Assembly: GCA_040954595.2 (NCBI GenBank)
Contig: CM082582.2
Coordinates: 11,399,483 to 11,463,482, forward strand
DNA: 64,000 nucleotides
Origin: Balanoglossus misakiensis
Taxonomy: Eukaryota > Animalia > Hemichordata
Reading direction: 5' to 3'
A program made the translations under genes and the position numbers. Positions 5,552-35,300 of this stretch are shown here, in pieces. The notes under the pieces were generated by a model. That model saw nothing but the letters and a program-made list of their open reading frames with translations, was not told the origin of the DNA and did not search any database. Every line of letters begins with the position of its first letter. Position 1 is the stretch's first letter.

Positions 5552-5552
<1 letters not shown>

Positions 5553-6885: not shown

Positions 6886-6944
6886 ATGGGAAGTAGTTGT
6901 TCGTCTGCTCAAGCTGTGAATGGAGGTCGTTCCAATACAAAGCC
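6886..6944 (+). CDS. Alternative first coding exon A of the NWD-like gene (MGSSCSSAQAVNGGRSNTKP)
   Basis: Strong Kozak gagATGG, myristoylation-type MGxxxS with Cys5, 59 nt ending in a phase-2 GTGAGT donor. In frame with the acceptors at 27686 and 32364. Confidence 0.6.
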
Positions 6945-8239
6945 GTGAGTACTACTACAGCTACTAAGTTGCAATGTTGTCAGGGGTGACGTTGAAATCG
7001 ACATTATTCGCGGAAAATGGGCTGAAATCAACATACAAGTTTCAGACTCGCGTGACAGAGTGAGCTAGCACGTTCACCGTATATTTTTTATGGACATTCC
7101 AGTCAATAAACCGCGCAAAATATTTACTTCGGTGAGCCCTCTCCGTCTCACAAGTATACTGTGAGTGTAGAGGAAAGTATATACATGTACCACACCTCAC
7201 GGTCGGTTTTCATCTTAACGTGTAGTTGTCTCTTTCAACAGCAAGCTGCAGTGTGGAACTGTCATCTTTTGATATTTTCTCCAAGTGCGCATGCAGTGCG
7301 AGGACACAGTCGCTTGGACACAGCTTCCAATCCAAGCGATTGTGTACGAGGACAGTATGCATGCAGCCGTTCGAGAACAGGCCAGCGCTGACCGCGGTTT
7401 TAAGTTTCCTTGCTCCGGTCGACTTCTCTCACTTGCGTTGCGGGCTTCAAAGTGATACGGTCTCCTGCCTTCCACTGTCGGGAAAACGGGGGAATTTCTA
7501 CCCCAAATTCCTTCCCAACATCCAAAGCTTTCAACTTTCACGGGCGGTGCAATGTCTTTGAAAAAAATGCAACCGTGTAGAATTTGGCGTAAACTATGCT
7601 AAGTTTACCGTGACAAAGAGCGTTCTCAAAGTTTTGTTTCCCCCACGTACACTTTGAAGCATTTGTAAATACCCGGTTGCGGAGAAGCTGTTTGCGTTGG
7701 TAGCCACGGGATTAAAAGTAAACCGTAGAAAACGTTGCCATGCTAAGAAACACGGTAGCCGGCGACTGAGGCGTGCAACAGACCAAAGACAACTTACGAT
7801 GATTAAAATTCGTATGACGAAAGCAATTGATTTCCGATCCGCTATGTCTTGTTGAGCGTCTCCACCCTTTTTTGCCGAGTCTTTTGTTGTCTTTGTGTAT
7901 CCATTAATACCATTGAAAGGTTACGTAAATCTTAAAACTTCCTTACAACAACTTTTCCGCTACACAATACTTCGAGTGTGCTAGTGTACCAAAGTTTACA
8001 GAAGGAATTCGAAACATATCTTGACACCGCACTGGGAAAAGTTACTTTGCGTTCGTTCTGCGAGAGTGTCCGGCGCGGCACTGCTTCCCTAGGGAGGCGG
8101 TGCGGCCAAAGCCGGACACTCTCGCTCGTAGTCGTACTCTTAGGAATTATTTGCATTTATGTCATACAGTGCAACATAAACATAAGTTTTTCCACCATAT
8201 TATAGCTCATCTTTCCATGAACTGCTTAAGGAAGGGATG

Positions 8240-8252
8240 AGGTCAAAGGTCA
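8240..8252 (+). promoter_or_regulatory. Perfect DR1 nuclear-receptor element AGGTCA-A-AGGTCA
   Basis: Exact consensus direct repeat (HNF4/COUP-TF/RXR type) seen in the sequence; function not shown. Confidence 0.4.
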
Positions 8253-11166
8253 GAACCACAGAGCATCATGGGTAACTTCATTGTGTGCCAGCTAAGGGTA
8301 ACTATGGTGACAGATAACCATCAACACATTCTTCAGATCATCACAAACTATCAAATAAGAATACAATATGCCATATTTCTCTTCACGAGACATTGTTTAC
8401 ATGCATAGATTGGGTTAATTCTTAATGATATATATTTGAGAGAGAGAATAAAAATATCCCGATATATGAATTGAACACAGTTATCACTATCAGACACATA
8501 GGTTTGTATTTCATATGCTAGACGAGATAGCAACTGGATACAGAGGATCTATCAAATACAGCAACAGGTGGGATGCTCCTTGAAGCAATCTACTAAAATT
8601 AGAATGCAAAACGCGTGGTCCTACTGTAAAATGACATTTACCAAAAAAACATCTGCATATGGCACTATAACATTGTTACTGTCATCAGATTGAATGGTTT
8701 GTTTTCAATGTGGCCAGATAAGTAGATTTTGTCGTGATGAATTTTGAGGAGCATGTTTGTTACATGTAAGTCTGTTTTACCATATGATCTTTCATGTGTT
8801 ACTGTAGGAAATGAAAACAAACACAAAAACCCAGCTTCAAGTGAAAAATGTCTCACATAGCTGCAATATTTCACATCTTCCAAGGTTATACCAGTAAGAT
8901 AGGGTTAGTGGGTGGACATTTGTTGTCTGTTCTGCAGAAATAATCTTCTCTTTGACAGTTTGAACGATATATTTTTGACGTCTGTCCTGAGGAAGTTGTC
9001 TTGATAATTACATGGGAATCTTCATTTTGAGTGACAAGGAGCTTTTAGTGAGCATTTTAAATCAATGTCGTACTTTGAATAAATGCAGTTTGTAGTGTTC
9101 ATAATTTGTCAACATGTCAGGGTACACACAATTACGTTATTGTTAGATTTGTATGCAATTCAACACCCACAAACAGTGTGTGTTACCTGTGTATAGAAAG
9201 TGCCTAGAACATGTGGGCATGCTGGCTAAAAAGCTGGTACCGGTAATTGGCAAAAAAGATAAACAACCTTTATGTGACTTTTCAGTGCCTACCAGCATGG
9301 GGGCAGAGTGTGCAGCTCACTGCCACGACTGTTGTTCATCCCTAATGCCTGTTTGAGCTGTTTGATAATATATTTTCAGTATTTTAGTTGTGTTTGTATC
9401 ATCTAATTTCTCTTCAAGTTTTGAAAACATGTTGAAACACTTTTGAGCCTGTCAGTACCGTCTTAAAGGTGTGACGTTATGCTGTTTACAACTGTATTTA
9501 CGTCAGACGCAATAACAATAGTGGGCGATTGAACAAACATGTTTTGCAGCATTGTCAAGACTTTCAAGAGTTTCAAAATGATTTGAATAATACTGTAGTG
9601 CCACATGTACCATGTGTGAAATGAAATGAACTTGAAAAATAAAATTATAATCAATGTCTTCTTTTGAAAGTGCATGTGAATTTTAAACTATTAATGAACA
9701 ATGCAGTCTTTTGAAACTTAAGTCTTAGTCGCCTGGACAAGTATGTGTCATTCAATTCAGAATACTGTCTTGTCTGAGACAATTGCCAAAGTTAACCAAT
9801 CATGATATTGATTTTCACCTTCACAATCGACCTGTAACCCCAAGATCATTGTTTCTTGCATCTGGTTGTAGGGAGTAAAAGATATTGCAGTTCACACACA
9901 CAGAACAAAATGTACAGAAAAAAGTTACAGCTAATGGAGGTCAATATGTACTGAATGATTCCTGTATAGTACTTTTATATCTATTTTCTGAGAATAATAT
10001 GGTGTCCCCATGGGAAATCAGCCTAAAATGATGAAAAATGCCAGTAAATTGTCAAACAAAGAAAGACAGTTGCTTTACAGTTAATAATCATGTTTTGCCA
10101 TAAAATTAACCCTTAATCGTAATTAATACAGATATAAATAGAGTATAAAATGATAATACAAGTACAATGATGGTTTTTGTATCTGGATATATTGTTAGTG
10201 GCTTGCTGTAGGTTTCTATTGCGTTGGCTTCAATACAGCTTTTTGCCAATCTGAGGTGTGAAGTGTTAACTAAAAGAAAAATATCTACTCTTTAAGTAGA
10301 CCTGGAATTTCCACTTCCCATACTGTAATAAGATGTGAGGAGTGTTTTGAAAGGCTGTATTTCTTTGCCGGTGTTCCGTGATCAATTGAACACGATTCGC
10401 CACAAGCCTTCCCCTCTGGCATGTTTTAAACCACAACATGTCCTTTGTACAAATAAGAAGATGCACGAAAGAATAGATCTGAAAGATATTGCGCAGAAAA
10501 ATAACGAGTTGGCATGTTTCCAGTAAAAATTTTCATCACTCAGAGTAATGTAGTGGTGTGAAGAAGTCCAGGTGTTTTGCTCTAATCACCCATTCATATC
10601 TGTCGACTGAAAGCAAATTCAGTTTTTTTATTGACAGCATGCCAGTACTGCTGCCAGTCAATATTTGTAATCTTTCCCGATAGCCTTGATTTTTACTGTT
10701 TTGAAGAAAACAGAAAGATTGTTTTCTCCTTCAAAGTGTAAATTGTTTATGTTTTGGAGGAAGAAACAGACCTTGGTGTGACCATCACAAGAGTGATTCT
10801 CGTGAGTGTATAGTTTAAAAGTTCATAGACAGAACAGAATTTCGTTGAAATATCAGCATTTCTGCAGCTTCTGTTGTGGTAGGTTATTCTGCTCTGCTTT
10901 TGCATTTAATAAGCTGCTGATATCACATTACAAAAGCATTAAACCACAGTTGGTGGAGTGATGATGAGCTAGGAAACCCCTCCAGACTTGTATAACGATA
11001 CCATTCACTTTATTACCATTAACATGTTTCATGATGAAATCTTCATGCTACTAAAATATTAATGAAACATTTTTAATATCAAGGAATATTACAAATCTAC
11101 AAGAAAATGAAATAACTGAACTAGGTATGATTCACCCTGTTTTTTCTTTCATTAAAGATTTTGCCT

Positions 11167-11470
11167 AAGCTGTATGACATAAGGGACAATATTAATATTG
11201 AAAAAATGATCAACTTTCCTTACTTGTACAGTAATATTCCGTCAGCTCCAGCGTATGGTGTATTCATTTCGCAACTCCTGAGATATTGTGACTCGTAGGA
11301 AGACTTTTTCAAGAGTGAGACACAGCTTATAAGCATGAAAGCCAGTGAGATAGGGATTTTCAGTAGATTAGTTAGATCATTTATTTTTGAAAATTCTATG
11401 GTGGATATGGAGATGTTGTGTTCAAATATTGATACATCTGTCACTCAAATGATGAGTGACAGCATTCCTG
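11167..11470 (+). mobile_element. Degraded Penelope-like retroelement fragment (C-terminal/thumb part of the reverse transcriptase)
   Basis: Translates as KLYDIRDNINIEKMINFPYLYSNIPSAPAYGVFISQLLRYCDS*EDFF..., then after a frameshift KFYGGYGDVVFKY. This matches the recalled KLYDKRDDF..NFP..SNIP..PAYGVYISQLIRY..KFYGR motif series of molluscan PLEs. It carries a stop and frameshifts. Confidence 0.8.
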
Positions 11471-13850
11471 GATTTGATACACAGTATTTTAGTTGCAAGG
11501 TGTAAATTTTTCCAGTATTGGGACTGTACTACACAGTACTGCAAACATGGCTACCGACAACTGCACTGTGTGCATTAGAATCCCAGAGTGGCTTTGCTTT
11601 CGAGGAGAGCAAACTCAAACCTGAGTGGCATAGTGTATCTTTAAAATAACTACTCCCCGACAAGTCAACATTGGCACTCCAAAAAGCCCTGCTCACATTT
11701 CAGATCCATGAATTACACAGGCCTTATCTTGATTGTGGCCTTAGGGTACACAATGATAAGATGGCTATCATTTATCAGTGGTGATTTAATTATAGATGAG
11801 ACAGGCGAATGTTTCTCCTGCTGCCATGGTAACGGCACAGATGGAATCAGTGCTGCCCCTCTGTTCTGCTGTGTTAATTGGCAACTCGGAGTACAACTTT
11901 TGGTACGTTAGACTTGTAGTTTGTTTCAGTGACAACTTCAAGACTTTTTTGTCACCCAATTGTTAAATCTGGATTCACACAACAGCCTCTTGTTATGCAA
12001 TTAATTTGAGCAATCAAACTGGTGCTGGCCAGGTGTTGAATTCTGTGGAGAATGGGTGGGGCGAACCAAACAAAACACTGTCCAGTCATTTATGGAGTGC
12101 ATCATTAAGCTGTTCTCCCCGTTTCCCTGCATATGGGTTCAACCGTGCCATTGAAAACAATAGGGATGGATCAAACAGTGTCAGTGAATAGGTTGTAAAG
12201 GTAGATAAAAACTTGTCTGTCTCTGTTCTCTGTAAAATACCAGTCACTCACTTCTGCAGTGAAACACTGCAAGCAGAGGTACATACAAAATCAGCTTACT
12301 CAACAAACAAGACAACTTTGAATGATGTTGATCTGCTGTCCAGACAGAGCAAATGAAGATTTACTGAGTGCATTCCTATACAAACCAAATTTAATATCAT
12401 GCAGGTGATAGAAAAAATGTTGAAAGCCAACTCATTTGGATTCACCATTGATTTGTTGTAGCATGGTTGTGTCATTTTGCTTATCTAATTGGTTGCCATA
12501 GTGACCATGAAAATATTTTGCTCGCTGAACAGCCCCCAATTGGCAATCAGTAAATTTGATTAATTGTAGACTAAGGATTTTGATAATCATACTCATAACT
12601 GTGTTTCTAGTGAGTGTTATGCAGACTGCATTAAATTGATTTAAAAATGCCTGAAATTTTGTTCACAATATGATCAAACCAAAGTGGTAGGTATCCTCCA
12701 GTTGGCTACCATTCAAGTATGTTTACGTGATTGTATAATTTCATGTACGCAAAACTAAAAAAAGGTTGGCATCTTTATGGTTTTATAAAATAAGAGATTT
12801 CTTTTTTGGTTAATGTCTTTTAAAAGGTCAGATATGGGAAAAGTTTTAACACTGTTGACAATATTTTTGAACTATAATTAAGTCGTTTATTTTTGTACAG
12901 CATACCATTGCTGTGTTTGTGTAATATGGTAGGACGCAGTTCATTTAACTTCAGTCATATTGCTTCTGTAGTTCAGAGATGTAAAATATGTCCATTACTT
13001 CCGAGTCACCATGGCAATTGACAGATTTTTCCTGGTGGTGATGACAAGAAAACATATGCTGTCATCTGATGTAGCTAGTTGTTTGTTGCTGTAGAAACTC
13101 CCGTTATTGGTGGAATATCATTCAGTGTTCTGTCATCACCAACATTCCCTTGTTCCCAACATCGCTACCACACCCATATTGTCATATGTGCTACGCTGTT
13201 TCATCTGACATATTGTAGCTTATAGCTATACTGCAGTCGTTTCACATGCAGTGATATGTTTGCCCGCTGGACAGTCTCAAACTAGAGTTCTTTAACTCCT
13301 TCTGATATTAACTACTGAAACCTTTTGCATATCCTTCGCTTAGATACTTTATCAACTTGGAGGATAAATAATTTCTCATGCGAAACCAAAGCGTTTAAAA
13401 CTGGTGCACCTAAAGTGGACAAACATCAAAGATTGACATATGTCACAACTCTAACCTTTTCACTTTTCTTCTCTTAATGGACTGAATTGAATTAGTGACC
13501 ATATATTATCCGAAGTTGTCAGACCAGTGACATGCTGAACTAATAAGTGTCCACTTTACCCTCATCAGAAGTCAGATTTAGACGATTAATAAAAGGTTGC
13601 ATATAGCGATGCAGTATTTCATGTGTGTTTATCACATGACCTGACCTAGATTTCACCTGTGTGATGTATGGTCAAATACTGTTAGGAGTTGCATCAAAGC
13701 TAGTATTGGAAAGGACTGTGATAAAACCATGGGAATACCGGTATACATGTGTGTATTCCAATGTATTTTGTTTGTACATGTACTACTATTCCTTGACTTT
13801 CTTTTTTGCATCTCCTTGGGTTTATACCATTAGATTGGTCCCCATCACTT

Positions 13851-13890
13851 TGTCTGTCTGTCTGTCTGTGCATCTGTCTATCTGTCTGTA
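13851..13890 (+). repeat. Imperfect (TGTC)n tetranucleotide tract, possibly a HINE/DINE-like relic
   Basis: tgtctgtctgtctgtctgtgcatctgtctatctgtctgta seen directly; GTCY tracts are typical of DINE-1-like elements. Confidence 0.6.
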
Positions 13891-16800
13891 CGTCTGGCTC
13901 ATGCATGTTACTGGTACGTGAAAGGGCTTGGCTATTTCAAAGTTTCAGGAAAATGACTGAAGTAGATTTTTCCAGCAACATTCTACCAGCTGACCCTGTG
14001 GCATAGTGAATGCCTTCCATGTTCAATTGTTATCATTCTACCATCAATACTGAACTCCACAAAAAAACCCAACATCTGTATGTGGCAGCCGTTGAAAACA
14101 TTTGACATGTTTTTTCAATTTAAATTCTTTTAATAAGAATAAAAATAGACTGATATCAATAAATATCACATGATTTTAACGTCAGTTGACGTCATCTCAT
14201 ATCTCCTCGAGGGAGTCATGTTTTCAATGTTGTATGACTTTCTTTGTGACCCATAAAGTGAAAAAAAAGATTATAAAGGCTTTTAAAGTGACCCACACAA
14301 AATCTCCACTTCCTATAAAATTCTGTGAAAATGTTTACCATTCTCATTCCAGGAAATAAAAATGTAATATTTAAGACGCTCATCGTGGATTACCCGGAAA
14401 GCACACTTGTTGTGCGAAACTGATACCGAATGAATAAAAAATACAGAAGGGATGCTCCAGAAAATGCACTTTTTTGTTATCTGTGCGGGAAACGTCGTCA
14501 CATCTAAAAGCTCTATTTCAGTTATCTGGATATATAGTCCAAATTTTGAAGACTGACACTGCTTGAGGTAGTTTTGGTTGTTCTGTGCAGCCCATGGGGA
14601 AGTTGAAACCCAGAGCTGTAGAAACCTAAAAAAATGCATCTTCATAATGTTCATCAACAGGATTTTGTTTTGTAAATCAGGGGTAAACATTTTGAAATTT
14701 CTTTGCCTCCTGAACTAATGGAGGACTGAGATATATTACTAGTATTAAGGTCACTCCTAGCAATTACAGTGAAGAAGCAACCTCATGGTAGAATCCCTTT
14801 GTCATTTTTTGAGCTGAATCAAACTAGCACTGTTCCTCCCTCAAGCATTTCTCTAGTTTATTGTTACTAAGCATGCTTCTGCTAGGGTATATACATTGTA
14901 CCAGAACCTTCAAAGCCAGAGTAGAATTGACGCTGTAGGGCTGTAGCAGAGCTTTTGGCCATGAATGCTAAGCTGTGACAAACCCATGAGTCTTCAAAAG
15001 TTTATGCACTCGTCAGTCAGGGTTTTTTTGATGCATGGCCTGACTTGCATTACCCGTTGCTTCAGTAGTTAACCAAATTTCGCGAGATCTCGCAACAAGC
15101 AGGAAAATCATCTTTTCTGGAACCAGGGGTTGAGGACGGTAGCTTTGAGAAGAAATCGTTCCAAGATTTGAGTGTTCATCCAAATGCGACTTTATCCGCA
15201 GATTACGAAGCTTCGCAGAATGATTCACTCGCAGCTATGTATTGCCTCTCAAAATCCTAGAAAAAAAGATTATGATCATAAATTGTGGAAATTGCTTTAT
15301 CATGCCACTTTCCTTCGCAGTTTAATTGATACATCGGTATCTATCCTTTCTACTATAATCTAAGCTTGGCAGCTGCTTATCGATTGTTTTTATGTGACTG
15401 AAAAAAAACATGAGGGGACATTACTGAGATTCTCTTGTGTGATGTCTTTGAATGTCAGTGAAATTGATATTGATTCGTGAATTCAGCTGAATTGAGTGTG
15501 AGACTTTGTCATGTCTCCAACAGAAAGGTTGCCAAATTTTGAAATAATGTTGATGAGTGATTCAAATAAGATTATTTGTTGTATTAATTGTTGGCTGATC
15601 CACTGAAATATTGATTTCCATATATTTTGTTGGGAATACTCTGACCTACATACTGGTCCATTCCATGAGAGAGCGCAATACATTACCTTATTGATGTGTT
15701 CCCAAACCACATTCATGTCAATCTCTCTCTATTCATGCGCCATTCAGAATTTTTTTAAAGATTTTTTCTTCTCCAGTAATGTATTTATTTTGTCCTTGCT
15801 GTGGAATCATTTATCGAAAGATGTACATGTATATTGTTAGTCACAATGAATGACATATGGTGATTACATGTATGGGTTTGTTACTGTTCATTCGCTTGAT
15901 TTTTAAAGGCCAGAGCCCTGATTGACAGCTTCGGTGGTGATCGAAAACCTTGGCAACACGTATCAACATCACCATTTGAAATTCCCAGTGTTTTTATAAC
16001 TATATGACATATATTTCCCATTTACTGACAGGAAAAATATTGTTTGCATGTACTCTGAAAATATGGTGTATTTGAAAATCCCCTACATAAATAAAATGTG
16101 ATTTATTATTATTCACCCTTTTTAAAACATTAATGTAAATTTGTGGATGGGAGAGGGGGGGGGGGGGTTCATGTTTATAGAATTCGAAATTTATTATTCA
16201 CTATTGTCAGTGTGAAATGGTATCAGAAAAATTAGTCATTTACCAAGATTGGTAAAAGGGTTGTAATTGCACTGTGATTCTCACTTCGGCATGTATGCCT
16301 CAGAGATAATAGTTGTATGACGTACTTAGCGTACATGAACTGTCTAGTGAAATCAAGGTCTGTCAACACAAGGGTACCCTACATACCTTTTGAATTTTTC
16401 ACCCTTGCTGCAGTGGTGGATGACGTCACATTCTCTTTTGAATATTCATATTTTTCATGCCGTCATCAGTTTGGTTTGAACATGTCTTGGAGTGATTTGG
16501 GTTGAGTTCACAAAAGGGTGAAATCAAGCTGACGTAGTGATCTCTCTCCCAGCTGTATTCTTTCAACTCAAATGCAGAAGATTTATTGCCTGCACTCATA
16601 CAACTGACAAAATATGTTATTGAAAAAAAAAACATAATCCAAATCTAGCCCAGCTGTTTTATGGAGGTCATCCTCTCAATATTTATTGCATTTCTAAACC
16701 AACTTTCCAGTGTTTACTTAAAAGAGATTAGCTGAAGCTTGTCAAAAAGAACTGTTTACCTTTGTTAAAAAATGATTGCCTGTGACCTTAGAGACTGTTT

Positions 16801-18275
16801 ATTGAAATATGATATGATGTCATAGCAACAGTAATTCTGATGGTAAACTGACCCAGTGGGTATATCAAGTACATATAAGCAGTAGCCATAACTGTCATTA
16901 TATACAATGGATTCTTACAGGATCAGTAATATTTGCATTTATTTCCCAAAGTACGTTTGGTATTGAGCTTGCCAATACAACCCTTGTTCATGAATTTGTA
17001 GCAAGCATTGATGATACAAATAACGGTATTAAAGTTGAGGAAATGGCAGCAAAAGTGCTGACTGTGTATGTAGTATGTGATTGCAAGCTACATATTGGAT
17101 GTTTCAAGCAAGTGTGTAACATGAAGCTGCTGTTAATACGCAGAACAAAAGTGCTGGAAAAAATATCAAAATTCACAGCTGTAGGTGCTGTGTAGACTGT
17201 AGTCAAAAGTCAAGAGGTTACTCATGTTCGAAGCCCTCACACGATCCACAAAAGTAAACAGAACTGCCTCAGTTGGACTTGTCCAGCGCATTGCTGCATG
17301 ACAAGAAACTTCTGACAGTTGCTCCGGGAGAACTCTGTCCAGGTGGACTCACTGTTGCCGAGGCTAGTCGCTGCTCGGATATTGTCGCCACGGCGCTCAT
17401 AATCCTGGTTCCCAGTATGTTGGAATGTGACGTGTTTGCTCAAGAGATAACAGGTGCTTGCTCATTTCACTGCTCTGCTACTGAAGTTATTGGCAAACGA
17501 GTGGGTGTTGAAACTGATAAGCAAAGTGCAATGCTGATACTATTGAAATCCAAAGGAGCAGAATTTTTCTACGAGAATAATCCAAATTCCCATGGCAAGG
17601 AGAATTTGCCATTTTCAGAAAAAAAAATTGTTTCCTCATTGATTGTGACCTTTTACGTCAATTCAGTATTGATCTATAGTAACACAGTTGAATAAGAAAG
17701 GACGATGAACTTCTCAATGAAAGTGCACAGCAGATTGGAGCGTCCATTAGCAGTGCAGGGCGTCCATATCATTTCATATCATATCTTATCATCGGTATGA
17801 TGCCAAATTTATTTTGTTCAATTTTCAACACAGAAATTGTCAAAATAAACTGTTTTGTTATTCAGAGTTCTGAATACCAGGATAATGAAACTTATTCTAT
17901 TATAATCCTCTTGTATATGAGAGAGCATATCTGCAGTGTTTGATGGCAAAGGTTAGCTTTCAGCTGTATGTTCACATGATGGATTTGTATGGTACACATA
18001 CACTGGTCAGCATATGATCGATGCATTTGTCCATGAACTGTGAATTTACCCCATGATGCACAGAGATCAGACAACAGTTGAAAAGACCCAGTGCCCTGAA
18101 ATAAAAATGAGATTTGGCTTTTTCGCTTTACTGTCTGTAAACCCGTCATTGTGAAGTATTGGCATATTTGTCAATACCTGTCTGTAGAGGGCAGCCTTAC
18201 AGACTTCAGACTTCTCTTATTTGACATTGAAGAACAAATTTGTGAAGTTGAAAAGTGTAGCTTTCTTCTGTGGTA

Positions 18276-18290
18276 GCGCCCTCTAGATGG
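18276..18290 (-). promoter_or_regulatory. CTCF-like motif (CCATCTAGAGGGCGC)
   Basis: Close match to the CTCF core consensus. A second weaker match (TCTGTAGAGGGCAGC) lies at 18181-18195 on the opposite strand. Confidence 0.35.
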
Positions 18291-19307
18291 ATCCTGTGGT
18301 ACGACAAAACTAAATGGGTTGCTAGCATATTGCGAGGGACATCTAAAATTGATTGATATTCTGTACCATAGTAATGATTGCCATTTTTGCAACATATAAG
18401 ACTGCATTTTGTCTTTATTATAAAATTGGCAGGTACTGAATTTCTTAATAAATGAAACTCGCTGCGAATTTGACACGGAGAAGGTACTTTCCTTCATTGT
18501 ACTTGTATGGCTAGATAAATGTTAAAATACCAAAACAAGATGACCTAGAGAGACTGGTTAGGAATGCTTTAGAAGGAGTAGCATATTCTTATGAAGCAAA
18601 TCTAACCAGCAGAATGTAAAAAGATAATGGCTAATACGTCTCCTTTACCGTTACACTTCAATATCAAATTTGTGTTGTGGTTTTGATGATGGAAAATTGT
18701 TTGAGTATGAATTTCTAATTTGTAAATTTCAAAACCTCATTCTGTACAGACTTGTTTCTCAATGAGCCATTCATTTATTTCCATAGCAACCAATTGTGTT
18801 CCATTTAACACTCTTCACAACAAGTCAAACAAAACAGAAATAGCTGTTAATTTGATAATCCTGCTATTAAAGTGTAAACGATTTATCAGATTAACATATA
18901 TTCGTATAGCGCTTTTGTCAGCGGTATTGCCATTTATGTATGGTGGTTACAGTGTAGTTTTTCTGGGCAAAAAATTAATATTTGAACAGTTGTCTTTGAA
19001 TAACACACACACTGTCCCTTGCAGTCTTGTACACATGACTGGCAGAGGCGAGCAGAATTTTCTGCAGTCGCTTGTGACATGCTACATGAAACTTGAATAC
19101 CATCGCCACGAGACATATTATGCAGGCCCCCACAATGCAGCGTACTTGGTTTAGCATAAATGTATAATTCATTTATGTAGATGAGAGCGTTCGGCGAGCT
19201 GTACATGTATGTCAATTGCTTTTCCTAGCTGTGTAGACTGCTTGATTCGAGGATCAGCACTGTGCGTCTCCCCCAGTACAGAGGTATAACGTCTCTCACT
19301 GTGCAGT

Positions 19308-19318
19308 ATGGGTGCCTG
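19308..19318 (+). CDS. Alternative first coding exon B of the NWD-like gene (MGA-C)
   Basis: agtATGGGTGCCTG followed by a perfect GTAAGT donor in phase 2, within a CpG/promoter-like patch. Spliced to 27686 it gives MGACCQKS; spliced to 32364 it gives MGACMGNRQS. Confidence 0.62.
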
Positions 19319-22300
19319 GTAAGTATCTGTTTCTACAGTTGCCAACGTTTTCTTTTGTCTCCCGCTCACACGGGTCAACAACATGGGAATATCAGAGTGG
19401 TTGGTTATGTAAGCGTGTATTTAGGCCTGACTTCACAGTTGATAGTACTGTACCAGTGGTTGCTCAATTCACGTCACAAAAAGCAGCAGTGTACATGTTT
19501 GTGGAGTGACTGAACGCTGCCTCTCAGCTCTGGCTGACAAGCTCGCACCTTTCGGCGGATTTCGTTCCCATTTTACGTTGTCACCACTTCCAGCTGCAGG
19601 TCTGGATCTTTGACCTCGCAGACACCAAACATTAAACAGTGGTAGTAGGTGTAGTGTATGGTCCAGTGATGAGTGACACAGGGCTCTGTGGGCTATTGTG
19701 TCTGTCAGTGTCTGTGTGAGTCAGTGGTATGTATTGTACTGTCTTGTGTGGGAAGATTCACACAGCCCGGTGTGTCTATGCGACATGTATGTCAGGTTGG
19801 TGTAATCGAGTTTCTGAAATGTTGGAAGGAGAGAGAGAAAAAAATGTGTCTAATCTGGGGTGGTTGAGGTAGTCGTAGCCATGGTTAGCTGGAGGGCTTC
19901 TTGTGGCTTGTAATTTAAACATGAGCAGATAGCTGCTTTTTGGTGTTCCCTTCCACACCTTGGCGTACAAGTGTGTCAATTCTGCAGTCTGAGACAGTTT
20001 GGTTGGTCTGGAGATTGGACACTCTCGTTTGTGAGTCGGCAATGGTTCTGGGCTTGCAGATTTTCCTTTTGGTGTACGTGAATGATGGGAAAGCCAGGAT
20101 ATGATGTGTGTGTGTGACTTGAGTTGTTCGGCATAGGGTGTGCTTTGAGTGTGTACCACTGTGGGGTCAGCAATGTTGATATGTTCACTGCTTTACTACA
20201 CACAGTGACCAGGTATGCAAATGACCCCATTATTGTGCTGTCTCTCTCTCTCACTCACTCAAAAAAAAAAAGAAGGGGACATATCTGCGACTAATAAAGA
20301 GGCTATTCTTTGTGCTGCTTGCCCCGTTAACTCTTTCTTTATGGTTTCTCGCCTATCTGCGTCGAGACTGCTGACGTCATTCAGAATGCCAACGCCAGTA
20401 ATTACCCTCTCATCTCCATGTATTCAATCGTTGTCAGGGTCTCCAAGATGCATATGAGCCTTGCCTGGATATTTGTAATCATCGTTTTATTTTCCTCTGA
20501 GATTTGCAGTGCAGCCGGGTTTCTTTTAATACATTGCGTTTGTATTTTGGTGTCTTAGCCGATCTATTTTTTTTAATGAAGTGTTGTGTTTTTTAAATCA
20601 AATTTGAAATAGTAACGGCGCTGTTTTTGGTAACTGCATTGCATTAAGTCATCTTGCATATTTTAATGAAGATGTTTAGGATTTCCATACAGAGCATTTC
20701 TTTTTCAAATTTATGAAACCATGACGGCATTTAGAAAGACCAACATTTATAATACTCAACTTGCTGGCATATTGAGGCATATTTTGTGTGTGGATATCAT
20801 TGAAACACATTAAGCATGTCTTCTGGAATATTCACGTCTATTTTATAAAGCCTATTATCCACAAGACATCATACGTAAGAAGGCACGTCACACACGCGAC
20901 GGTAACGTTCCTCCGTTTCACATAAAAATATGAGATGACGGAATACGAGATGGTCCATACATTTTAACTAGCAGGAGATCTCCATTGACAGTGGAGCGGG
21001 TGACGTCATTGGGCTTGCTAGAGACAGGGTCGCCCTGTCAGTAAAGAGCCGTGTTACATGCTTGTGAATTCGCCAACGGGTAATAAAACCCCAGTCATGG
21101 TGTTTGACATCATGATCGTGGAAAAGGACGTCATTATGAAGTCAGAGCCGATGCAAGCCATTGGTTGCCTCTGGTTTTTCATGCATATCCATATCAAACA
21201 CATTTCATCATTGCACGGCTGCAATGCCATGCAAGGGCCTTGGCCATTTGCTGGGCAGTGTTAGAGTCAAATAAAAGCATAAACGCCGGTGAGATTTTTT
21301 CCTGATGCAGATATGCGTACTGGACTTTTTCCCGAAGGATAAAGAAATACAAGGTGAATTTTCGATACAAATTGGTAAAAAATTCTCTTTTTTCTTCTTC
21401 AAATTATTGGTTAATTGTGAGTGGTTGCTCCAGCCGTCTCCATGGATGATTGGCCTTGAGTTGATGTCTTTCTGAACGTAAAATGAATGTTAAACTTGTG
21501 TGGATTTCCTTCCTTCACACACAGCATTCACACAACAACCTGTATTGTATTTGTTCCACGAAATAAAAGTTGAACAAACTCCCCCAATATAAAACTAATG
21601 AGTCTGGTCTGGATTAGAGCTACTAACAACACAATCCCATCTGCCAAGGTTATTTAACAAATGGAATTAAGACTGAAGAAAAGGCCACTCTGAAAACGGT
21701 TTCCAGGAATTCTTTTCAGCATGTATCCAGTCCACTTGCATATCTGAGAAATAAAAAAGCGAGAGAAAAGAAACGCAGTGAAAAACTCGAAATACGAGGC
21801 GGTTCCCACCTTCGCTAGGCCCCTCTGTCATATAGGTGAGTGCATATGGGAATAGCCGTGTAGAGCAGTTAATTTGAAGAAAATCAGTTGCTCATTACTC
21901 GCTCACCTGCCACAATGTCTAGTCCCTAATTACTTCATTCAAATGACGCAACTGGATGAATTTTCAGACGGGAAATTTTTTACACCTAATTGGTGAAAAT
22001 CGCATCGACTATTCTGGTCAAGGAATATGTGGATTCAAATGCAGTGGTCGTCCCTGCAATTTATATTGCGCCTTTTATTTCAATAGCGAGACTGTAGCCA
22101 AACTCGGCGCTGCCTTGACAACTGAGCTATATTACCATATGAGACAGTGGAATTTTACAAGTCATTTTTGGGTATATTGTAGCCTGTGCAAACTTGCTGT
22201 ACTTTTTCTTACGACATTATGTTTTGATTAAATGAGCTTCTTAAAGGTGGGTGGCTTTTCTTTTGCCATGTGTTATCTACACAAATTAATACAGTAGAAA

Positions 22301-22534: not shown

Positions 22535-22558
22535 GGGGGGGGGGGGGGGGGGGGGGGG
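22535..22558 (+). repeat. Poly-G homopolymer (G24); other runs at 16155-16167, 22785-22799, 54867-54879 and C17 at 62365-62381
   Basis: Counted directly from the sequence. Confidence 0.9.
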
Positions 22559-27685: not shown

Positions 27686-27727
27686 TTGCCAAAAATCAGG
27701 AAAGGTAATCGGGCAGTCTTCACAAGA
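27686..27727 (+). CDS. 42-nt symmetric (phase 2-2) micro-exon of the NWD-like gene (CQKSGKVIGQSSQD)
   Basis: Strong acceptor tttctctgacactttttgttcacag, perfect donor GTAAGT at 27728, length divisible by 3, and open in exactly the phase needed to join the upstream first exons to the exon at 32364. Confidence 0.65.
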
Positions 27728-30234
27728 GTAAGTTCAACATTTTATCCCATTTTTCACATCCTCCCTGCACAGATATAGATGCCAGCTGTTTTTGGTTTCT
27801 GAAGCCGCAGCTTCTGTCCATTTCTGGTATTATTTTTGTTCACGACTGATCATCTGCTTTACTACACTTCCCCTCTCCATCCCCCGTAATTTGCGTCATC
27901 TAAACAATCGTGTTGACGTGTCTGTATCCTCCCCCTCATTCTCTCACACGCACATGCATCAGTTCGCTTACACCTTTAAGCAGCACTTTTGTGTTTCAAT
28001 GCTGTAATTACAAAATAGTTGTGTGAAAGCTACCATTATTTTTTTCACTACAGTGTTTCTTTCGCAGTGTTGATCATTTCATAATACTGCTTTTGCATTG
28101 CTTTCTATATCTGTTCAGTTTCAATCTGCACATCTGAACGCTGATACAGTGGATATATGTGTGGTTTACTCAAATACTTTATCCTTCTGAATAATAAAAG
28201 CCAGCCAAACCTAGCTCAGCTGGGCAACTTTTGGGACAACCAGTGATATTTTCACTACATGGTGCCAGGCTGACTCTGTCCCCTGTAGAGGGCATCAGAG
28301 TACACCAAAGTACCTGACCAGTGCAATGTGTACATGTATAAGCAAAGGGATTCATCAATGTCACAGATATGATTATTGTTTATAAAGATTTTTTGTAAAC
28401 ACCAAACACAAATAACAACAACACAACAACAGCCACATATAAGCTAGTTGTTTGAATGCCCCATTTTGTTGACCTGTCTCTGGTATGGTCTTTACGTTAC
28501 GAAGATATACCTCCCCTCAGTCTCAAGGTTTTGCATTATCACAATAGACCACTAAGCGTATTGCAGCCCCTTCAGTTATTTGACTACTGCCTACTTTGCA
28601 TTCAGACCTCAAATCTGTCTTAGGTCAGTGACTCCAGTTTGTATCAGTGTCCACCATTCATTGAATTAAGCCGAACTCTCTCTTTACGCCGGTTGAAAAA
28701 CTTCCCTGAAACCCTGGGTAATACCTGGGGCAAATGTCTCAATTCTTTCTCTGAATACTTTGTTTGGAGAGTTCTGTTTTCTTCAAATCGTGCCAGACGA
28801 GCAAGACATCTGTCTGTGATATCACGTAACCTCATTCAGACACACCATCTTGAAGGAGAATTGCACCTTGTAGAATTTTCTTTAATCAGTTGGACGTTCT
28901 GCAAGAGAACTTGGGTCAGTGAAAAAATCTAACAACAATTTGTTATCTGATAATCTGATGAAAGGCATGTTATACATTTTCTTCTTGTTCACCATTTAAC
29001 TACGAGCTTAGGTGAGATATATTGTTCAAAACAGACGATGATATTTTTAACACAGTGGACATGTTTAGATTTTTATAGGAAAAATTAGCTTACAATTTAT
29101 GGATGGGTCTTGTTCAGTAACACTAGCATCATATGATATAATATTGATTGCTTGAAGCTGATCTGAATCCCATGAACTAGGCCAGCCATGAAAGATTTAG
29201 AATCTTAACAATAGGAGAGAAAAAAATTGATTTCTGTAAATCCAAAGTGTAATTTCCTAGAATGACAGATACTAATGGTTACCAAGCAACGCACTTGATG
29301 TATATTTATCTCAAAATACTGCCTTATATGTATACCTCGACTTCTACGGAGATGTCACTATGATTTATTAATATTATTAGAAATTTGGAAATCTAAGTGA
29401 TGATTATACTATGGGAAGCAGTAGTTTTGAGACACGACTATTATTTGAAAATTATGCCAGCGCCATCAAGACATTGCTGTCAGGTCTTGATTTTGATATT
29501 GTAAATTCAAAAATCTGACTGAACACCCCGAGAAGATTTAGCTTGTTTTGATAAAGTAAAAAGATGATTGATAACTGTTTATTATTATCATTATAAAAAA
29601 GACAGGACTGGTGTAGTATCTACGATTTCTGGTTTTGTGATCCGCTCTCTAGCCATAGCCCTGCCGGGTCTCTCACATTTTCCTTTGACACTGAAGACAG
29701 ATTCCAATTCCTTGGTGCCTGCTCAGTCGTACAGAAAACCCAGGGATGGTTGTAAATCAAGGTTCGGTGATCATGGGTGACTATAAACCCCCATTGAGGG
29801 AAACAGGAGAGGACAAAAACTCGCGACAATGTGGTCATGGATGATAACGCGTTTTATGTCCACCACCCCATGCATTCACATATTGTCAAGACGCCTTCGA
29901 ATGCCACCCAAAAAAAAAAAAAAGTCGTCAGTCAACCTGTCCCATTCTGCAGACAAGCCATAACACGTTACCATGACAACATTGTCATCATCATCCCCCA
30001 CTTCCATTTAGAGTTTGCATAGTAATGAGCTTTCTATTCTGCATTTTTTTTTATTTTCCTCGGCGAGAGTTCTTCCAAAGGATGGGTTTGAGGTGTAAAA
30101 TAGGTGTCTCCTCAGTTGAAATATGTCGTAATATATATTGCATTAAATGAAAAAAATAATGAAGAGAAAATTACACGTCTTTTGTTTTGTCCCTCTGTTT
30201 GCCGTTGTAAAGAACAAGATAGCTTACTCTCGTT

Positions 30235-30270
30235 TGACGTCAGCAGTTGATTGGTTGCTTAGCAACCAAT
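30235..30270. promoter_or_regulatory. Compact promoter module: CRE + RFX X-box flanked by two opposed CCAAT boxes
   Basis: TGACGTCA at 30235-30242 and the palindrome ATTGGTTGCT-T-AGCAACCAAT at 30250-30270, which contains GTTGCTTAGCAAC. Confidence 0.55.
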
Positions 30271-32364
30271 AGCTGGGTTGTAAATAAATGAGTAACCTCC
30301 CCCAGACCTGAAGGTTGTTGAAGACACACAGCTTTTCAAAATGCACTCTGCATAGCTAGGAAATTAAATAGTTCCAAATTGATAGGGCCCTAGAAGTTGA
30401 CACAGTCGTCGCATCGAGGGAAAATATCAACCAGGGTATTTTTTTAGTTTGCATTGTCACTGCTGTTCCAAATTTTAAAATGTATTCCAACAAAAATATA
30501 ATTCTAAAACAAGAACCATACCATGCATGAAGATGCCTTTTTATAATTCAGTTAGCTTTGTGTATTAATATGTCAACTCATGCTGTGTTTTTGACAATAT
30601 TTTGATATGTACAATTTTTGCTTATTTAATATCAAGCAAAAAGATTCGGAATTATCAATTTCTTGGATTTTTCTCTCAGCTACTTAGTGACAAAAAATTA
30701 TGGCTCTTGACAATAAGCCCCACTGAAAGGTGTTTTTATTTTTTTTGACTGATCAAGAAACAGACATTTCCAGTATAAGAGAGCGCGGGACAGAATGCAA
30801 GACACTCCATTTCGAAATTGACAGAAAATGAGCCCGGCTTTCGTCTTGGCATGGGGTGAGACGGCATTCATATAACCGAAGCATAAATTTGAATTCAGCA
30901 AGTGTTGGGCGAACAAGAACAACCCTGGCTCAGCCATTGCCCCCAGAGAATTAATGACGTCAAACGTGACATCAGCCTAATTACCTCGGTTAATTCTGTC
31001 ATATTTCCATGTTTAACTCAGCTTCCCTTGAGCCGTCGCTGCCAGCATCATGGAAATTTCACAAGTTTCCATACATGTATTAAATTACACCAAAAGCATT
31101 CTCAGAAATTCTAAGAGCATTACAGTCAGCTATCTGAATTTCTCGTGGTCAGTTTATCATTTCCCCCTATTGAATTTTCTCTCTCTCAATTTAGATTTTT
31201 GCTGCTTGATCCTTCAAGAGTGCCCATATCATGTTATCTGATACTAAATACTTTATTAGGTTTTGATGTGTATTAATTTATGACAAGGTCGTGGCTGACG
31301 TAAAATGGACAAATATGATAATAAGGTGGATGATACTTGTAAACTTATTGACTGAACGTAGAACGTGCATTTAAATGCTCTGGATGCCAAGGCACGTATA
31401 TGTACTCATTTCAACATGCAAAACCGGTCTTCACGTAACAGATTTGCAATTTGAAGCTGTTTAGCATTATCATTCAAAAGCAGAAAGTAAAAAAAATATG
31501 CATTGGGTTATTTTCCTATTTCATTTATTGGTGAATTATTGAATCGGAGATATAGGCTAGGGTTCTGCGAAAAGATGGAGGAGGCTTTTTGGATTAAGTG
31601 ATTTTTGCTAAAGAGGGAATCAGAATGGTGTGGTGTCACACAGAGTGCAGAGAAATCTACTACTAACCATACAGGCTCAATAAAACATGCAGAATTGCAT
31701 TATGCTTTAATGACATGGGTGTAGTGCATATACAGTCTCCTGACTGACTGACAAGGGCAGACGTGAAACGTTGACGTGAAAAATAAAACGGTGCCTCAAG
31801 TAGTCAAGGCCCTTTGTGCCTTCTGGTATCCATTGGATACTGTTCAGAAATGCGTGTCTTTTCACAGCCGAGCCCGAACTACTAAACTCAGTCTGGGTAA
31901 CCCTTTTTTGTTTTATTCTGTACACAGTAATGCAGTCGTAAATCTTTCCTCTGTTATTATCCGCGCTGCTACATTATTACTGAACATCAATGCAGGGTTA
32001 TTGAAATCTGCTTCCAGAGTTATAAATCTGTTAAAATGAGACGCTGTGTCTCATTCAACCACTCTTATCATTCTCTGTCAGAGCTGTATAGATATCTCGG
32101 GATATCTCTGTTGTCGTTCATGTAATCTGTAATACAAGTGTTACCCAAATCCACACAGGTTACAATGCAGCAATAAAATATATTTATTTGCGAATGGAAA
32201 ACCTTAGAGGTTCCTTTTGTTGACAGTTACTGCTTCAGTAGAGTTATATCAGTTCATATCATTTCTTGTTTGATTTCTTGGCGTTTAGTTTTACATACGT
32301 GATGAAATTGTCATCAGAAAGAAAGACTGATTTTAATGTTTTTTATTTGATTCTTTTCTGCAGC

Positions 32365-35300
32365 ATGGGAAACCGTCAAAGCCAGACATCTGATGACAAA
32401 GAGACCAAAAAACCGCGGAGGGACAAGCCTGGTGGGCGGCCAAGTGCAACGTCGTCCAGCAGCGTAGCCGTTCATGTCGAGGATAAAATCCCTCCCTCCC
32501 AGAGCAGCAGCCCCTCGGAGGCCAACACAGCCGGACAGACCTCGGCGCAGTCATCGCCCCCACTTCAGCAATCCTCCCCACCCTCCTCAACAGTCACCTC
32601 GTCAAAGACCTCCTCCCCAGCCCCTCCTCCGGGACCGAGCAAGCCAGGTCCGGCCGAGCCACCTCTGCCGAAGCTGGACAGTCTAAGGGAAGATGTCGTC
32701 CAGTTATTGCTGGGGGATGTGGCCGCTGTGAGGTGCTCGCTAAAATCAAACACAATTAGGATATTTGTCAGTGCATGCCAAGCAGGTATGTATCAGCCCA
32801 CGTTCACCCTATCAGTGATTTTAGACTTCTGAAGTTAACCTGTATAACTGAAAGACCCCCTGCCTCATGGTGAAATTTTATTTACGAACATTTCATTGTG
32901 ATATTTCTTTTTACAAACCTCATCTGTAATTGAGTAGCGTCACTTGACGTTTTCATCAACAGTGACCTGATTTATTTCCGTTATCATTTTGCATAAATGT
33001 TGCGATCTTTGTTGATTAGCTTCATACAGCCTGCGTATTGTAAGGGAAAAAAAATAACTACCGGTTAATACCCATCTGTGCTTTGCTTGGCTCCTGTGCT
33101 CAAGGGCATGACATATACTCTCTTCCCTTTAATGATGTTGCCTATACAACGGTAGGCTTTTGACCTTGTGGAAAATGCATGGTGACACTGAAGCAATGGA
33201 CTGCAGGTCATCGGCACTGACTAGATCTGCCCTTTGTGTCGCGCCGTATATTGTGAAGTCTTATCACAATTTCCTTTTATTCTTTTATCAATTTCCAATT
33301 AACTGTAGCATACCAGTATATCAATATACAGAGGTGGCCACTAACACAGGTTTGACTGTATATCTCTTTGATTTATATTTTAGATTCCGAACTTGAGCGC
33401 AGTGTGTTGATGGAAAGGGTCTATCCGAAGCTTCAGAGACACTGCAGTGAAAATGGCTATGAACTTCAGTTCGTCGACCTGCACTGGGGTCTGAGGTCGG
33501 AAGACTTGGACGATCACAGTCTGATCGAATGTTGTCTGTTTGAGCTGAATGAATGCCTGAGGATATCTGTGGGACCAAATTTCATGGTGAGAGATTGTTC
33601 AGAGATTGGAAGCTAGTGTTGTAATGTTGTATCGATGCCGGGACTTCGTTTTTTTTCACTGATCGAAATTAAAGTAATTCAAGGTTGCGTTCAAAAGCAG
33701 ACTTGTCGCATTATCACTGTGGTTGTCCTTTGAGAAAAGCCGTTTCACCAGTAAGTTAACATTTCGTGTGGTTGTCTCGATATCTTTATCTAATTAAGTA
33801 TGCATATCATTTTCAGAGCTTCCTAAATCAGAAGTATAACTGCCAGTGTCCAAGGCACATACCTGCATCAGCATTTGAAAAACTACAGAAGTCCGTCACT
33901 GATGTCAGTGAAAAGCATCTTCTGGATGAGTGGTACAGGCGGGACGAAAATGCCATCCCGCCCGTGTATGTCCTGCAGCCGGTCAGCAGCCAAATCAAAA
34001 AGTACAAAGACACCAACAAGGACGTCAGGTTGAAAGCGGAACGGGAGTGGTCGGACGTGCAGCAGAACATCAAGAAAATCCTCCTCAACGCCTGGGGTCA
34101 GGAAGAGCAAGACAGATACTTGTGTTCAGGTGAGAACCCTGAAGTGATGGGGTATGCTTGTGGCGCTGAATTTGAGACATGCCGTCTAGCACGTTCCTCA
34201 CTGTTTCTCGGAATGTCGTTTCTCGGAAACCAGTATTTGTGCGCCACTTTGGTTCTTGCAGACACAAACAACCATCTTGAAGTTGAGTGTCTGTAGTGTG
34301 CGTACCGGAGTCTGAGAAGATTGAACTGTACTTTTTTTTATAAGAGAAAGAATATTGCATGCATATACCGCAAGTCAATCTAGATGATGTCTTCTTTGCT
34401 GCATGACATGAACTCCTTCAGACTTTCTTGAAAAATAATTTCAGTAGAGTAAAGTTCAGATATTTAGCTTTATGAAAACGTATGGTTTGTTAGGGCTCCC
34501 GTTTTGTCTTTGATTAGAAAAATTTGACTTGACACTTTGACTGTACAGCACACTCAGCAACTCTGCCTGCTTAGCATTAGCGATCGAGAAAACAATTAAC
34601 TTACATTTCGAACTGATAATTTAGATGTGTAAGAGTGCAAGGATTCTCTTAAATGTTGAAACTGACGTCATACAGTCATTGAAAACCACATCTGCCCACA
34701 CCCACTGGTGCCCACCTTTTGCCATGTGCGTCACTGTCGTCATTCGACTGCATCAGAGCAGTGAGTGGCCAGATCTTTTACTGGAACTATAGTGGTACTT
34801 GTCGGGAGGTCATTTACCCTCGTGTATTAAATGACGAATTTTATCATTCGTAATTTGTCTGGCATTTTTCGTGTCGTTGATGTGTCAAACATATCGTAAT
34901 ACTCAAAGCTGCCCCCGTTCTTTACAGTACTTTTCTACAATGACACGAACACCGTGTGTAAAAGATGAAATTAAGAGATGAGACCAATCAGATTCCTGTC
35001 TTGTGTTGTCTGTGAGGGTTGGAATCTGTAGCAATTTTCCACTTACTCAGAAAATTAGCAAGTCACTTCTGTCTTGAGCAGATGACTCATTTGTAGACAC
35101 AAAGCACTTAACTCTGTGCAGCCTTGCAGTTATACTCTATAAAAGTCTAATTGAACAAATCGATTCGGCCTATGTACAAGTTACGTGTACAGTTCAAAGT
35201 GAAGAGTTAAAACAGTGTGTGTGTGCATATGTATAATAAACATGTATGTAGTTGTATGTGTGTGTGTGCATGCATGTGTTGTGTGTGTGATAAAATGTAT

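What the first reader, a model, noticed from the sequence alone, without database searches (positions are those of the whole stretch)
6886..32785. Promoter/micro-exon switch giving an NWD-type STAND NTPase several different lipidation-type N-termini
Seen in sequence: the first core NWD exon starts cag|C-ATG-GGA-AAC (32364), so any upstream phase-2 donor joins in frame ahead of MGNRQSQ. Exon A (6886-6944, MGSSCSSAQAVNGGRSNTKP, GTGAGT donor), exon B (19308-19318, MGA-TG, GTAAGT donor) and a 42-nt phase 2-2 micro-exon (27686-27727) all fit that phase. B plus the micro-exon reads MGACCQKSGKVIGQSSQD-MGNRQ, with the Cys-Cys pair created only across an 8.4-kb intron. Established: MG starts (especially MGxxxS) are N-myristoylation signals, and nearby Cys residues are palmitoylated. 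Inference: promoter choice tunes membrane anchoring of an NLR-like NACHT-WD40 protein: myristate only (MGNRQS), myristate plus one Cys (MGSSCSS) or plus two Cys (MGACC). I know of no description of this for NWD1/NWD2/QUI-1.
Basis: partly seen in the sequence, partly recalled or inferred. Interest (0 to 1): 0.8.

Follow-up and report, generated by a model that had tools for sequence, protein, structure and literature searches.

The report
Swappable lipid-anchor starts on invertebrate NWD
An acorn-worm gene for an unstudied NACHT-WD40 signalling protein carries two tiny alternative start exons and an optional micro-exon, matched by annotated isoforms in acorn worms and echinoderms, which likely move the predicted lipid-anchor cysteine between positions 4 and 5 and so would send the protein to different cell membranes.

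Summary
Largely confirmed. Exons A (6886-6944), B (19308-19318) and micro-exon M (27686-27727) lie as stated and join in frame to an intact 10-exon NACHT-WD40 core. The four joins (A, A+M, B, B+M) match the four NCBI isoforms of the Ptychodera flava orthologue (85% identity). Among 13 named hemichordate and echinoderm species, A-type starts occur in 9, B-type in 11 and both in 7. The gene is not NWD1 or NWD2 but a separate invertebrate clade: 82 of 109 non-ambulacrarian members start MGxxC, none MGxC, so exon B (Cys4) looks ambulacrarian-specific. Published G-alpha heptapeptide work found that Cys4 gives plasma membrane and Cys5 Golgi or cytosol, which supplies a testable mechanism. Corrections: B joined to the core already has one Cys; B+M fails the quoted myristoylation motif at residue 6; the 'myristate-only' start is not among 6 hemichordate isoforms and is lost in sea urchins; exon A may be an internal exon. 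No RNA from this species and no lipidation or localisation test was possible. Switching lipid anchors by first exons is a known kind (KChIPs); this is a new, conserved variant on an unstudied STAND protein.

The parts
4501..8500 (.). CpG-rich island over exon A, likely main promoter region
   Evidence: CpG observed/expected 0.90-1.14 in 1-kb windows starting 4501-7501, against 0.24-0.67 for windows starting 8001-19501
6845..6864 (+). Acceptor-like site 21 nt upstream of the exon A ATG; A may be an internal exon 6865-6944 behind non-coding 5' exon(s)
   Evidence: score 8.5, rank 18 of 1835 AG sites, within the 5.7-14.1 range of 9 core acceptors; use not shown
6886..6944 (+). Exon A coding part (starts MGSSCSS, Cys5), clade-wide type of N-terminus, phase-2 donor
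   Evidence: matches P. flava X1/X2; best six-frame match for distant orthologue peptides; MGxxC in 82 of 109 non-ambulacrarian orthologues
19308..19318 (+). Exon B coding part (M-G-A-TG|); Cys4 is completed by the first base of the next exon
   Evidence: matches P. flava X3/X4 and Glandiceps X1/X2; MGxC starts in 11 of 13 named ambulacrarian species
27686..27727 (+). Optional 42-nt phase 2-2 micro-exon M (starts with a Cys)
   Evidence: present or absent in P. flava X1-X4 and Glandiceps X1/X2, as 15 and 16 residues against 14 here
32364..32785 (+). Core exon 1: MG start, Ser/Pro-rich linker, start of the N-terminal NWD domain
33384..33586 (+). Core exon 2
33817..34129 (+). Core exon 3
35859..36260 (+). 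Core exon 4
38280..38620 (+). Core exon 5: NACHT, Walker A
38786..38992 (+). Core exon 6: NACHT, Walker B
39119..40855 (+). Core exon 7: NWD1-like winged helix and WD40 repeats
   Evidence: PF25469 E 7.9e-18
41018..41202 (+). Core exon 8 (WD40)
41362..41486 (+). Core exon 9 (WD40)
41761..41972 (+). Core exon 10, coding part to the stop codon

Best explanation
The window holds an intact gene of an invertebrate NACHT-WD40 (NWD-type STAND) clade with two alternative start exons and an optional micro-exon, all in frame with the core, and the choice among them likely changes a predicted myristoyl-plus-palmitoyl anchor so that isoforms would sit on different membranes. Shown in sequence: the exons, their phases, the open frames and their match to relatives' annotated isoforms. 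Inferred steps: (1) exon A gives Gly2/Cys5/Ser6, predicted myristoylated and singly palmitoylated, the form seen across bilaterian invertebrates. (2) Exon B, likely with its own weaker promoter and seen only in hemichordates and echinoderms, supplies just M-G-x and two bases of a Cys4 codon, so residues 5-7 of the myristoylation signal come from whichever exon follows; the core supplies the small Gly6. (3) Including M after B gives Cys4+Cys5 with Gln6/Lys7, likely a changed lipid state (two palmitates, myristoylation uncertain); after A it only adds a distant Cys21. (4) By analogy with G-alpha heptapeptide reporters, Cys5 forms would favour Golgi/endomembranes or cytosol and Cys4 forms the plasma membrane. 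The anchor would hold the N-terminal domain and NACHT on a roughly 120-residue flexible linker at that membrane.
For: Four of four joins equal P. flava NCBI isoforms X1-X4, at 84.6-84.7% identity over the full length. A-type starts occur in 9, B-type in 11 and both in 7 of 13 named ambulacrarian species. Unnamed Logan contigs of 5.5-7.9 kb carry whole B-type proteins (P0060, P0073, P0293), which points to transcripts and is independent of NCBI gene models. Among the 120 best clade hits, 86 start MGxxC, 85 of those 86 have Ser6, and all 86 pass residues 1-6 of the NMT motif; MGxC occurs in 6 of 11 ambulacrarian and 0 of 109 other rows. B needs C or T next to make Cys (A gives a stop, G gives Trp), and both acceptors here supply one. 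Sea urchins have Leu for the core Met but keep the Gly that is residue 6 of the B form. Sea cucumbers have an unrelated optional six-residue Cys insert at the same junction. PMC9018777 (sections 7-9 and passages): Cys4 reporter at the plasma membrane, Cys5 reporters at Golgi or cytosol, in N2a, HeLa and Drosophila S2 cells; Gly at residue 6 tolerated; MGSSCSR, one residue from exon A's first seven, was recruited by zDHHC11.
Against: No RNA, promoter, lipidation or localisation data for this organism. The NCBI isoforms are computational models whose read support I could not see. B+M fails the quoted NMT motif at residue 6 in both named hemichordates; Gln6 was not among the substitutions tested in PMC9018777, where Asn, Arg, Phe and Val at 6 abolished membrane binding. 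In that paper one Cys5 reporter (MGNTC) was barely palmitoylated, and the enzyme that took MGSSCSR, zDHHC11, is a plasma-membrane one, so exon A need not go to the Golgi. Downstream basic residues or partners can override a heptapeptide. B has no CpG island. M is limited to hemichordates in my sample. The protein's pathway is unknown.
Confidence: 0.55

Rival explanations
1. Equivalent anchors, different expression. Exon B exists to give a second promoter (tissue or stage); it needs a working dual-acylation signal like A's, and the Cys4/Cys5 difference and micro-exon M do not change where the protein goes.
For: A+core and B+core both pass the NMT motif and carry one proximal Cys. M after A only adds linker and Cys21. 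M length drifts, 14/15/16 residues, and M is not shared with echinoderms.
Against: Cys4 is fixed in all B forms from 11 species and Cys5 in 86 of 86 MGxxC rows. Reporter data show one-residue Cys shifts change compartment. Optional Cys-adding inserts recur in unrelated form in sea cucumbers and a cockroach.
Confidence: 0.27
2. One promoter, cassette splicing (concerns the architecture and is compatible with the anchor model). Transcription starts in the CpG island in non-coding exon(s); A (6865-6944) and possibly a 12-nt B (19307-19318) are internal exons each bringing its own ATG, and skipping both gives the core-only start.
For: Single CpG island. Strong acceptor at 6864, and a CAG one base before B's ATG, like the core's cag|C-ATG. 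Several relatives list 2-4 accessions for one A-type protein, which suggests variable UTR exons. Core-only isoforms exist in 3 sea stars.
Against: B's acceptor scores 3.6, rank 192 of 1835, below all 9 core acceptors. A 12-nt internal B would keep frame, yet no A+B isoform appears in any ambulacrarian protein seen. About 10 AG sites lie upstream of A's ATG, so one high scorer is not rare.
Confidence: 0.25
3. Micro-exon M is an off-switch for myristoylation in B transcripts: Gln6 blocks NMT, leaving a palmitoyl-only, cytosolic or unstable (free N-terminal Gly) isoform instead of a stronger anchor.
For: B+M fails the motif at residue 6 in this window, P. flava and Glandiceps. Large residues at 6 abolished membrane binding in reporters. 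Unmyristoylated Gly N-termini are degraded by the Gly/N-degron pathway (PMC13082882 passage).
Against: B+M gains Lys7, a positive position of the same motif, and I recall substrates with Lys7 and a non-small residue 6 (memory, not checked). The sea cucumber insert keeps Ser6 and passes.
Confidence: 0.15
4. The upstream exons are chance matches or unexpressed relics in this species, and the protein starts at the core ATG.
For: No RNA evidence for this species could be examined. A's donor scores poorly (-0.5) on a 9-site matrix.
Against: Peptides, order (A, B, M, core), phases and splice signals are all kept and match P. flava's four isoforms.
Confidence: 0.03

Closest known systems
KChIP N-terminal variants (PMC3973911, passages); similarly PSD-95 alpha/beta, c-Abl 1a/1b and PDE2A/PDE10A (recalled, not checked)
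   Same: [quoted passage not shown]
   Different: Those switches mostly turn a lipid on or off or swap it for another anchor. Here both first exons give Gly2 plus Cys and differ in Cys position, and exon B's signal is split across an intron and finished by a selectable exon.
G-alpha N-terminal heptapeptide code (PMC9018777; abstract, sections 7-9, passages)
   Same: Gly2 myristoylation plus a Cys at residues 3-5, whose position sets zDHHC choice and Golgi versus plasma membrane.
   Different: Shown there with engineered mutants; here Cys4 and Cys5 versions are natural alternative isoforms of one gene, untested.
Plant group II (CCG10) CNLs such as SUMM2 and RPS5 (PMC13043302, passages)
   Same: STAND/NLR-type proteins with MGxxxS/T and often MGxCxS/T anchors; SUMM2 needs myristoylation for membrane targeting and signalling.
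   Different: NB-ARC/LRR plant receptors, not NACHT-WD40; no alternative start exons were mentioned in the passages I read.
NWD1, NWD2 and C. elegans QUI-1 (PMC7186558 and PMC8871372, passages; section 6 of the latter)
   Same: N-terminal DUF4062-like region, NACHT, NWD1-like winged helix and WD40 repeats.
   Different: The window's protein falls in a separate clade (SH-aLRT 100). The vertebrate NWD1 and NWD2-like rows I held do not start with MG. QUI-1 is reported as largely cytosolic, but with an N-terminal tag that would block myristoylation; I did not have its sequence.

Membership tests
NWD-type STAND NTPase | NACHT P-loop domain with Walker A and B | tested here: met
   PF05729 above cut-off in orthologue P0033; Walker A and B found in the window model at residues 500 and 587
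NWD-type STAND NTPase | NWD1-like winged helix followed by WD40 repeats | tested here: met
   PF25469 65 bits, cut-off 27, and WD40-type hits in exon 7
NWD-type STAND NTPase | N-terminal DUF4062-like domain | tested here: inconclusive
   DUF4062 is not among the best 25 of 37 Pfam hits shown for P0033, but the region aligns without a break to the DUF4062-positive region of paralogue P0074
NWD-type STAND NTPase | Nucleotide-driven oligomerisation | not testable with these tools
   needs biochemistry; the 60 best solved-structure hits shown were WD40 proteins only
NWD1 orthologue | Groups with vertebrate NWD1 | tested here: not met
   17-row clade, SH-aLRT 100, excludes both vertebrate NWD1 rows (same split); no AU test run
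NWD2 orthologue | Groups with NWD2 | tested here: not met
   Shark and mollusc rows labelled NWD2(-like) fall outside the clade; no mammalian NWD2 was in the set, and labels are automatic
QUI-1 orthologue | Groups with C. elegans QUI-1 | not tested
   no named nematode protein was retrieved
Dual N-acylated (SH4-type) N-terminus | NMT motif M-G-[^DEFRWY]-x-[^DEKR]-[ACGST], as quoted in PMC9018777 | tested here: inconclusive
   met by A, A+M, B+core and this species' core start; not met by B+M (Gln6) or by sea star and sea cucumber core starts
Dual N-acylated (SH4-type) N-terminus | Cys within residues 3-5 | tested here: met
   Cys5 (A), Cys4 (B+core), Cys4 and Cys5 (B+M)
Dual N-acylated (SH4-type) N-terminus | Lipid attachment and membrane binding | not testable with these tools
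   no predictor or experiment available
Alternative-promoter first exons | Separate transcription start sites for A and B | not testable with these tools
   no RNA run listed; indirect signs are mixed
Alternative-promoter first exons | A and B mutually exclusive | tested here: met
   no A+B protein among the ambulacrarian isoforms seen; limited to annotated forms

The most novel reading that the evidence does not exclude
Hemichordates and echinoderms added to an ancient Cys5-anchored STAND protein an 11-nt start exon that is half a lipidation signal. Exon choice writes Cys5, Cys4 or Cys4+Cys5 and routes one NLR-like sensor to Golgi or plasma membrane through different zDHHC enzymes: a natural, conserved use of the cysteine-position code so far shown with engineered peptides, with Cys-adding micro-exons gained independently in acorn worms and sea cucumbers.
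Probability: 0.35. Interest if true: 0.7.

Novelty: new variant of a known kind. Interest (0 to 1): 0.5.

Why it matters
It gives a natural gene in which isoforms differ by the position of one palmitoylatable cysteine, kept since the hemichordate-echinoderm split, so the cysteine-position sorting code can be tested on an endogenous protein in sea urchin or sea star embryos. It also marks an apparently unstudied NWD clade, found in arthropods, annelid, nemerteans, lancelets and ambulacrarians, as a predicted membrane-anchored animal STAND protein, parallel to myristoylated plant NLRs. Practical point: N-terminal tags would mislocalise these proteins.

Tried and rejected
Sequencing runs: one search for RNA runs holding 32300-41000 listed none; this is no evidence either way and left no reads to lay. 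No genome is held for the window, and no genomic DNA of relatives was reachable, so intron positions in relatives are inferred from protein junctions only. My first exon models failed through coordinate slips; one search is the valid one. A candidate exon near 37936-38052 gave 0 open models among 1152 combinations and was rejected. Two other ATG-GG candidates (19383-19408, 30851-30855) have no Cys and match no relative's isoform; treated as chance. Nested genes: 0 of 45 ORF stretches hit Pfam (I chose 43 from the 86 intron-region ORFs, mostly 80 aa or longer, plus 2 upstream of A). The sea cucumber insert has no convincing match here (best score on the minus strand). Trees: one search dropped 20 of 103 rows with short matches (10 of them MGxxC starts); one search used 36 chosen rows, quick search, no mixture model. 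The Atlas search only returned NWD-type clusters. Earlier scan findings: three look-ups, nothing shown. Literature searches for a prior description: 'NWD1 + myristoylation' 0 papers; 'NACHT and WD + myristoyl' 1 listing, on mouse thalamus; 'NWD2 + NWD1 + invertebrate' 6 listings, none on this by title; 'microexon + palmitoylation + alternative splicing + cysteine' 5 listings, none on this by title; a five-term alternative-promoter search 0. The library lacks most subscription journals, and supplements were not searched. A BTK-C paper seen only as a reference title was not held.
Full report
Observation. The core starts cag|C-ATG at 32364. A ten-exon core runs to a stop at 41972, and the joins A+M, A, B+M and B give open frames of 1415, 1401, 1399 and 1385 aa. 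In 32 kb upstream only 4 ATG-GGN starts reach a phase-2 GTRAG donor (simulated mean 0.72), and M is the only frame-keeping micro-exon passing my splice filters. These filters were set after seeing the sites, so I rely on homology.

Homology. The closest protein is from the acorn worm Ptychodera flava (86% over exon 7). Its cluster holds four NCBI isoforms, X1-X4, whose starts are exactly A+M, A, B+M and B, each about 85% identical to the matching window model. Glandiceps has B+M and B. M's peptide is 14, 15 and 16 residues in the three species, so it changes by whole codons. Over 13 named ambulacrarian species, A-type starts occur in 9, B-type (MG[ATN]C) in 11 and both in 7, covering sea stars, urchins, crinoids and hemichordates; the sea cucumber has B with and without its own six-residue Cys insert. 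These are computational isoforms; that such models usually rest on RNA alignments is my own knowledge, and I could not see their support. Whole B-type proteins on unnamed Logan contigs of 5.5-7.9 kb (P0060, P0073, P0293) point to real transcripts in echinoderms. Peptides from distant orthologues pick out exon A and exon M as the best of about 64,600 six-frame positions. Against a simple picture: Acanthaster has two and Lytechinus pictus one annotated start that is not MG, and three sea stars have a core-only start.

What the gene is. It has an N-terminal region that aligns with a DUF4062-positive paralogue, a NACHT with Walker A and B, an NWD1-like winged helix and WD40 repeats. In trees it sits in an invertebrate clade with lancelet, annelid, nemertean and arthropod members (17 rows, SH-aLRT 100), apart from vertebrate NWD1 and from shark and mollusc NWD2-like rows (which dropped 20 of 103 rows). 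No vertebrate or nematode name appears among the 120 best of 265 hits to its WD region. QUI-1 was not tested. Of those 120, 86 start MGxxC, 85 of them with Ser6. Among the 109 non-ambulacrarian rows, 82 are MGxxC and 0 are MGxC; the other 27 start otherwise, 5 of them with an MGxxCS a little further in, and many are short or look truncated. So exon A's Cys5 signal is clade-wide and exon B's Cys4 signal appears limited to ambulacrarians in this sample.

How it likely works. The NMT motif quoted in PMC9018777 (section 7) is met by A and by B+core. B supplies only M-G-x and TG; the next exon completes Cys4 (C or T needed) and gives residues 5-7. The core's Gly becomes residue 6, where a small residue is needed, and sea urchins keep that Gly although they have Leu for the core Met. 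This can explain the conserved 'MG' of the core without a myristate-only isoform. The same paper found that a Cys4 heptapeptide reporter goes to the plasma membrane and Cys5 reporters to Golgi or cytosol, in mammalian and fly cells (sections 8-9), and that MGSSCSR, one residue from exon A's start, is taken by zDHHC11. I therefore infer that A versus B shifts the anchor between compartments. The caveats are real: one Cys5 reporter was hardly palmitoylated, zDHHC11 is a plasma-membrane enzyme, and B+M has Gln6 and fails the motif while gaining Lys7 and a second Cys, so it may be a stronger anchor or an off-switch. After A, M adds only Cys21.

Promoters. One CpG island (o/e 0.90-1.14) covers exon A; B and the core start have none. 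A has a strong acceptor 21 nt before its ATG (rank 18 of 1835), and several relatives list 2-4 accessions for one A-type protein, so A may follow non-coding exons. B's CAG is weak (rank 192) and no A+B protein was seen, so B is more likely a true first exon. This is unresolved without RNA; none was listed.

Comparison and novelty. Swapping lipid anchors by N-terminal exons is known (KChIPs, PMC3973911 passages; other cases recalled). N-acylated STAND proteins are known in plants (SUMM2, RPS5; PMC13043302 passages). Mammalian Nwd1 is described in purinosomes (PMC7186558 passages) and QUI-1 as largely cytosolic under an N-terminal tag (PMC8871372 section 6). The isoforms themselves already stand in automatic annotations. 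Five searches found no paper describing N-acylation or start-exon switching for an NWD protein (listings only, limited library, supplements unseen).

Verdict. The feature is real and conserved; the lipid and sorting steps are inference. Rough odds: exons used 0.95, dual acylation of the A and B+core forms 0.8, isoforms differing in localisation 0.55. New variant of a known kind; interest 0.5.

Noticed in passing
window 39845-39893 and 41635-41683: A 49-nt piece of coding exon 7 is repeated (98% identical) inside the last intron.
   Followed up: no
window 51977-52417 (-): GSK-3-binding (FRAT/GBP-like) ORF, PF05350 E 6e-14, in a CpG-rich stretch at about 51.5-56 kb.
   Followed up: partly
window 59030 onward (+): A SPRY-domain gene (weak PF00622 hit; resemblance to RSPRY1 is recalled) whose reading frame from ATG 59030 begins MGACVC, another Gly2-plus-Cys start.
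   Followed up: no
window about 139-283 (+): Apparent last coding exon of an upstream gene; its C-terminal peptide recalls PP2A/PP4 HEAT scaffold subunits (memory, untested).
   Followed up: no
window 47500-50500: CpG-rich stretch (o/e up to 1.21) with no gene assigned.
   Followed up: no
window 19383-19408 and 32302: A second ATG-GG with a phase-2 donor lies 64 nt after exon B's donor (no Cys), and an in-frame ATG lies in the intron 63 nt before the core ATG; neither matches a relative's isoform.
   Followed up: partly
orthologues P0111, P0114, P0119, P0128, P0132, P0133 (crustaceans): Decapods and a mantis shrimp share a different alternative start that lacks Gly2 and is rich in Leu and Arg, beside the MGxxC start: a second, independent N-terminal switch in this clade.
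   Followed up: partly
orthologues P0147, P0025 versus P0146 (Periplaneta): An optional six-residue insert with a Cys-Cys pair sits just after the first-exon peptide in cockroach isoforms.
   Followed up: no
paralogues such as P0074, P0216, P0218, P0227, P0235, P0278, P0289: Another invertebrate NWD group often starts MGC (Cys3) or MGSG, so predicted N-acylation may be common among invertebrate NWD proteins.
   Followed up: no
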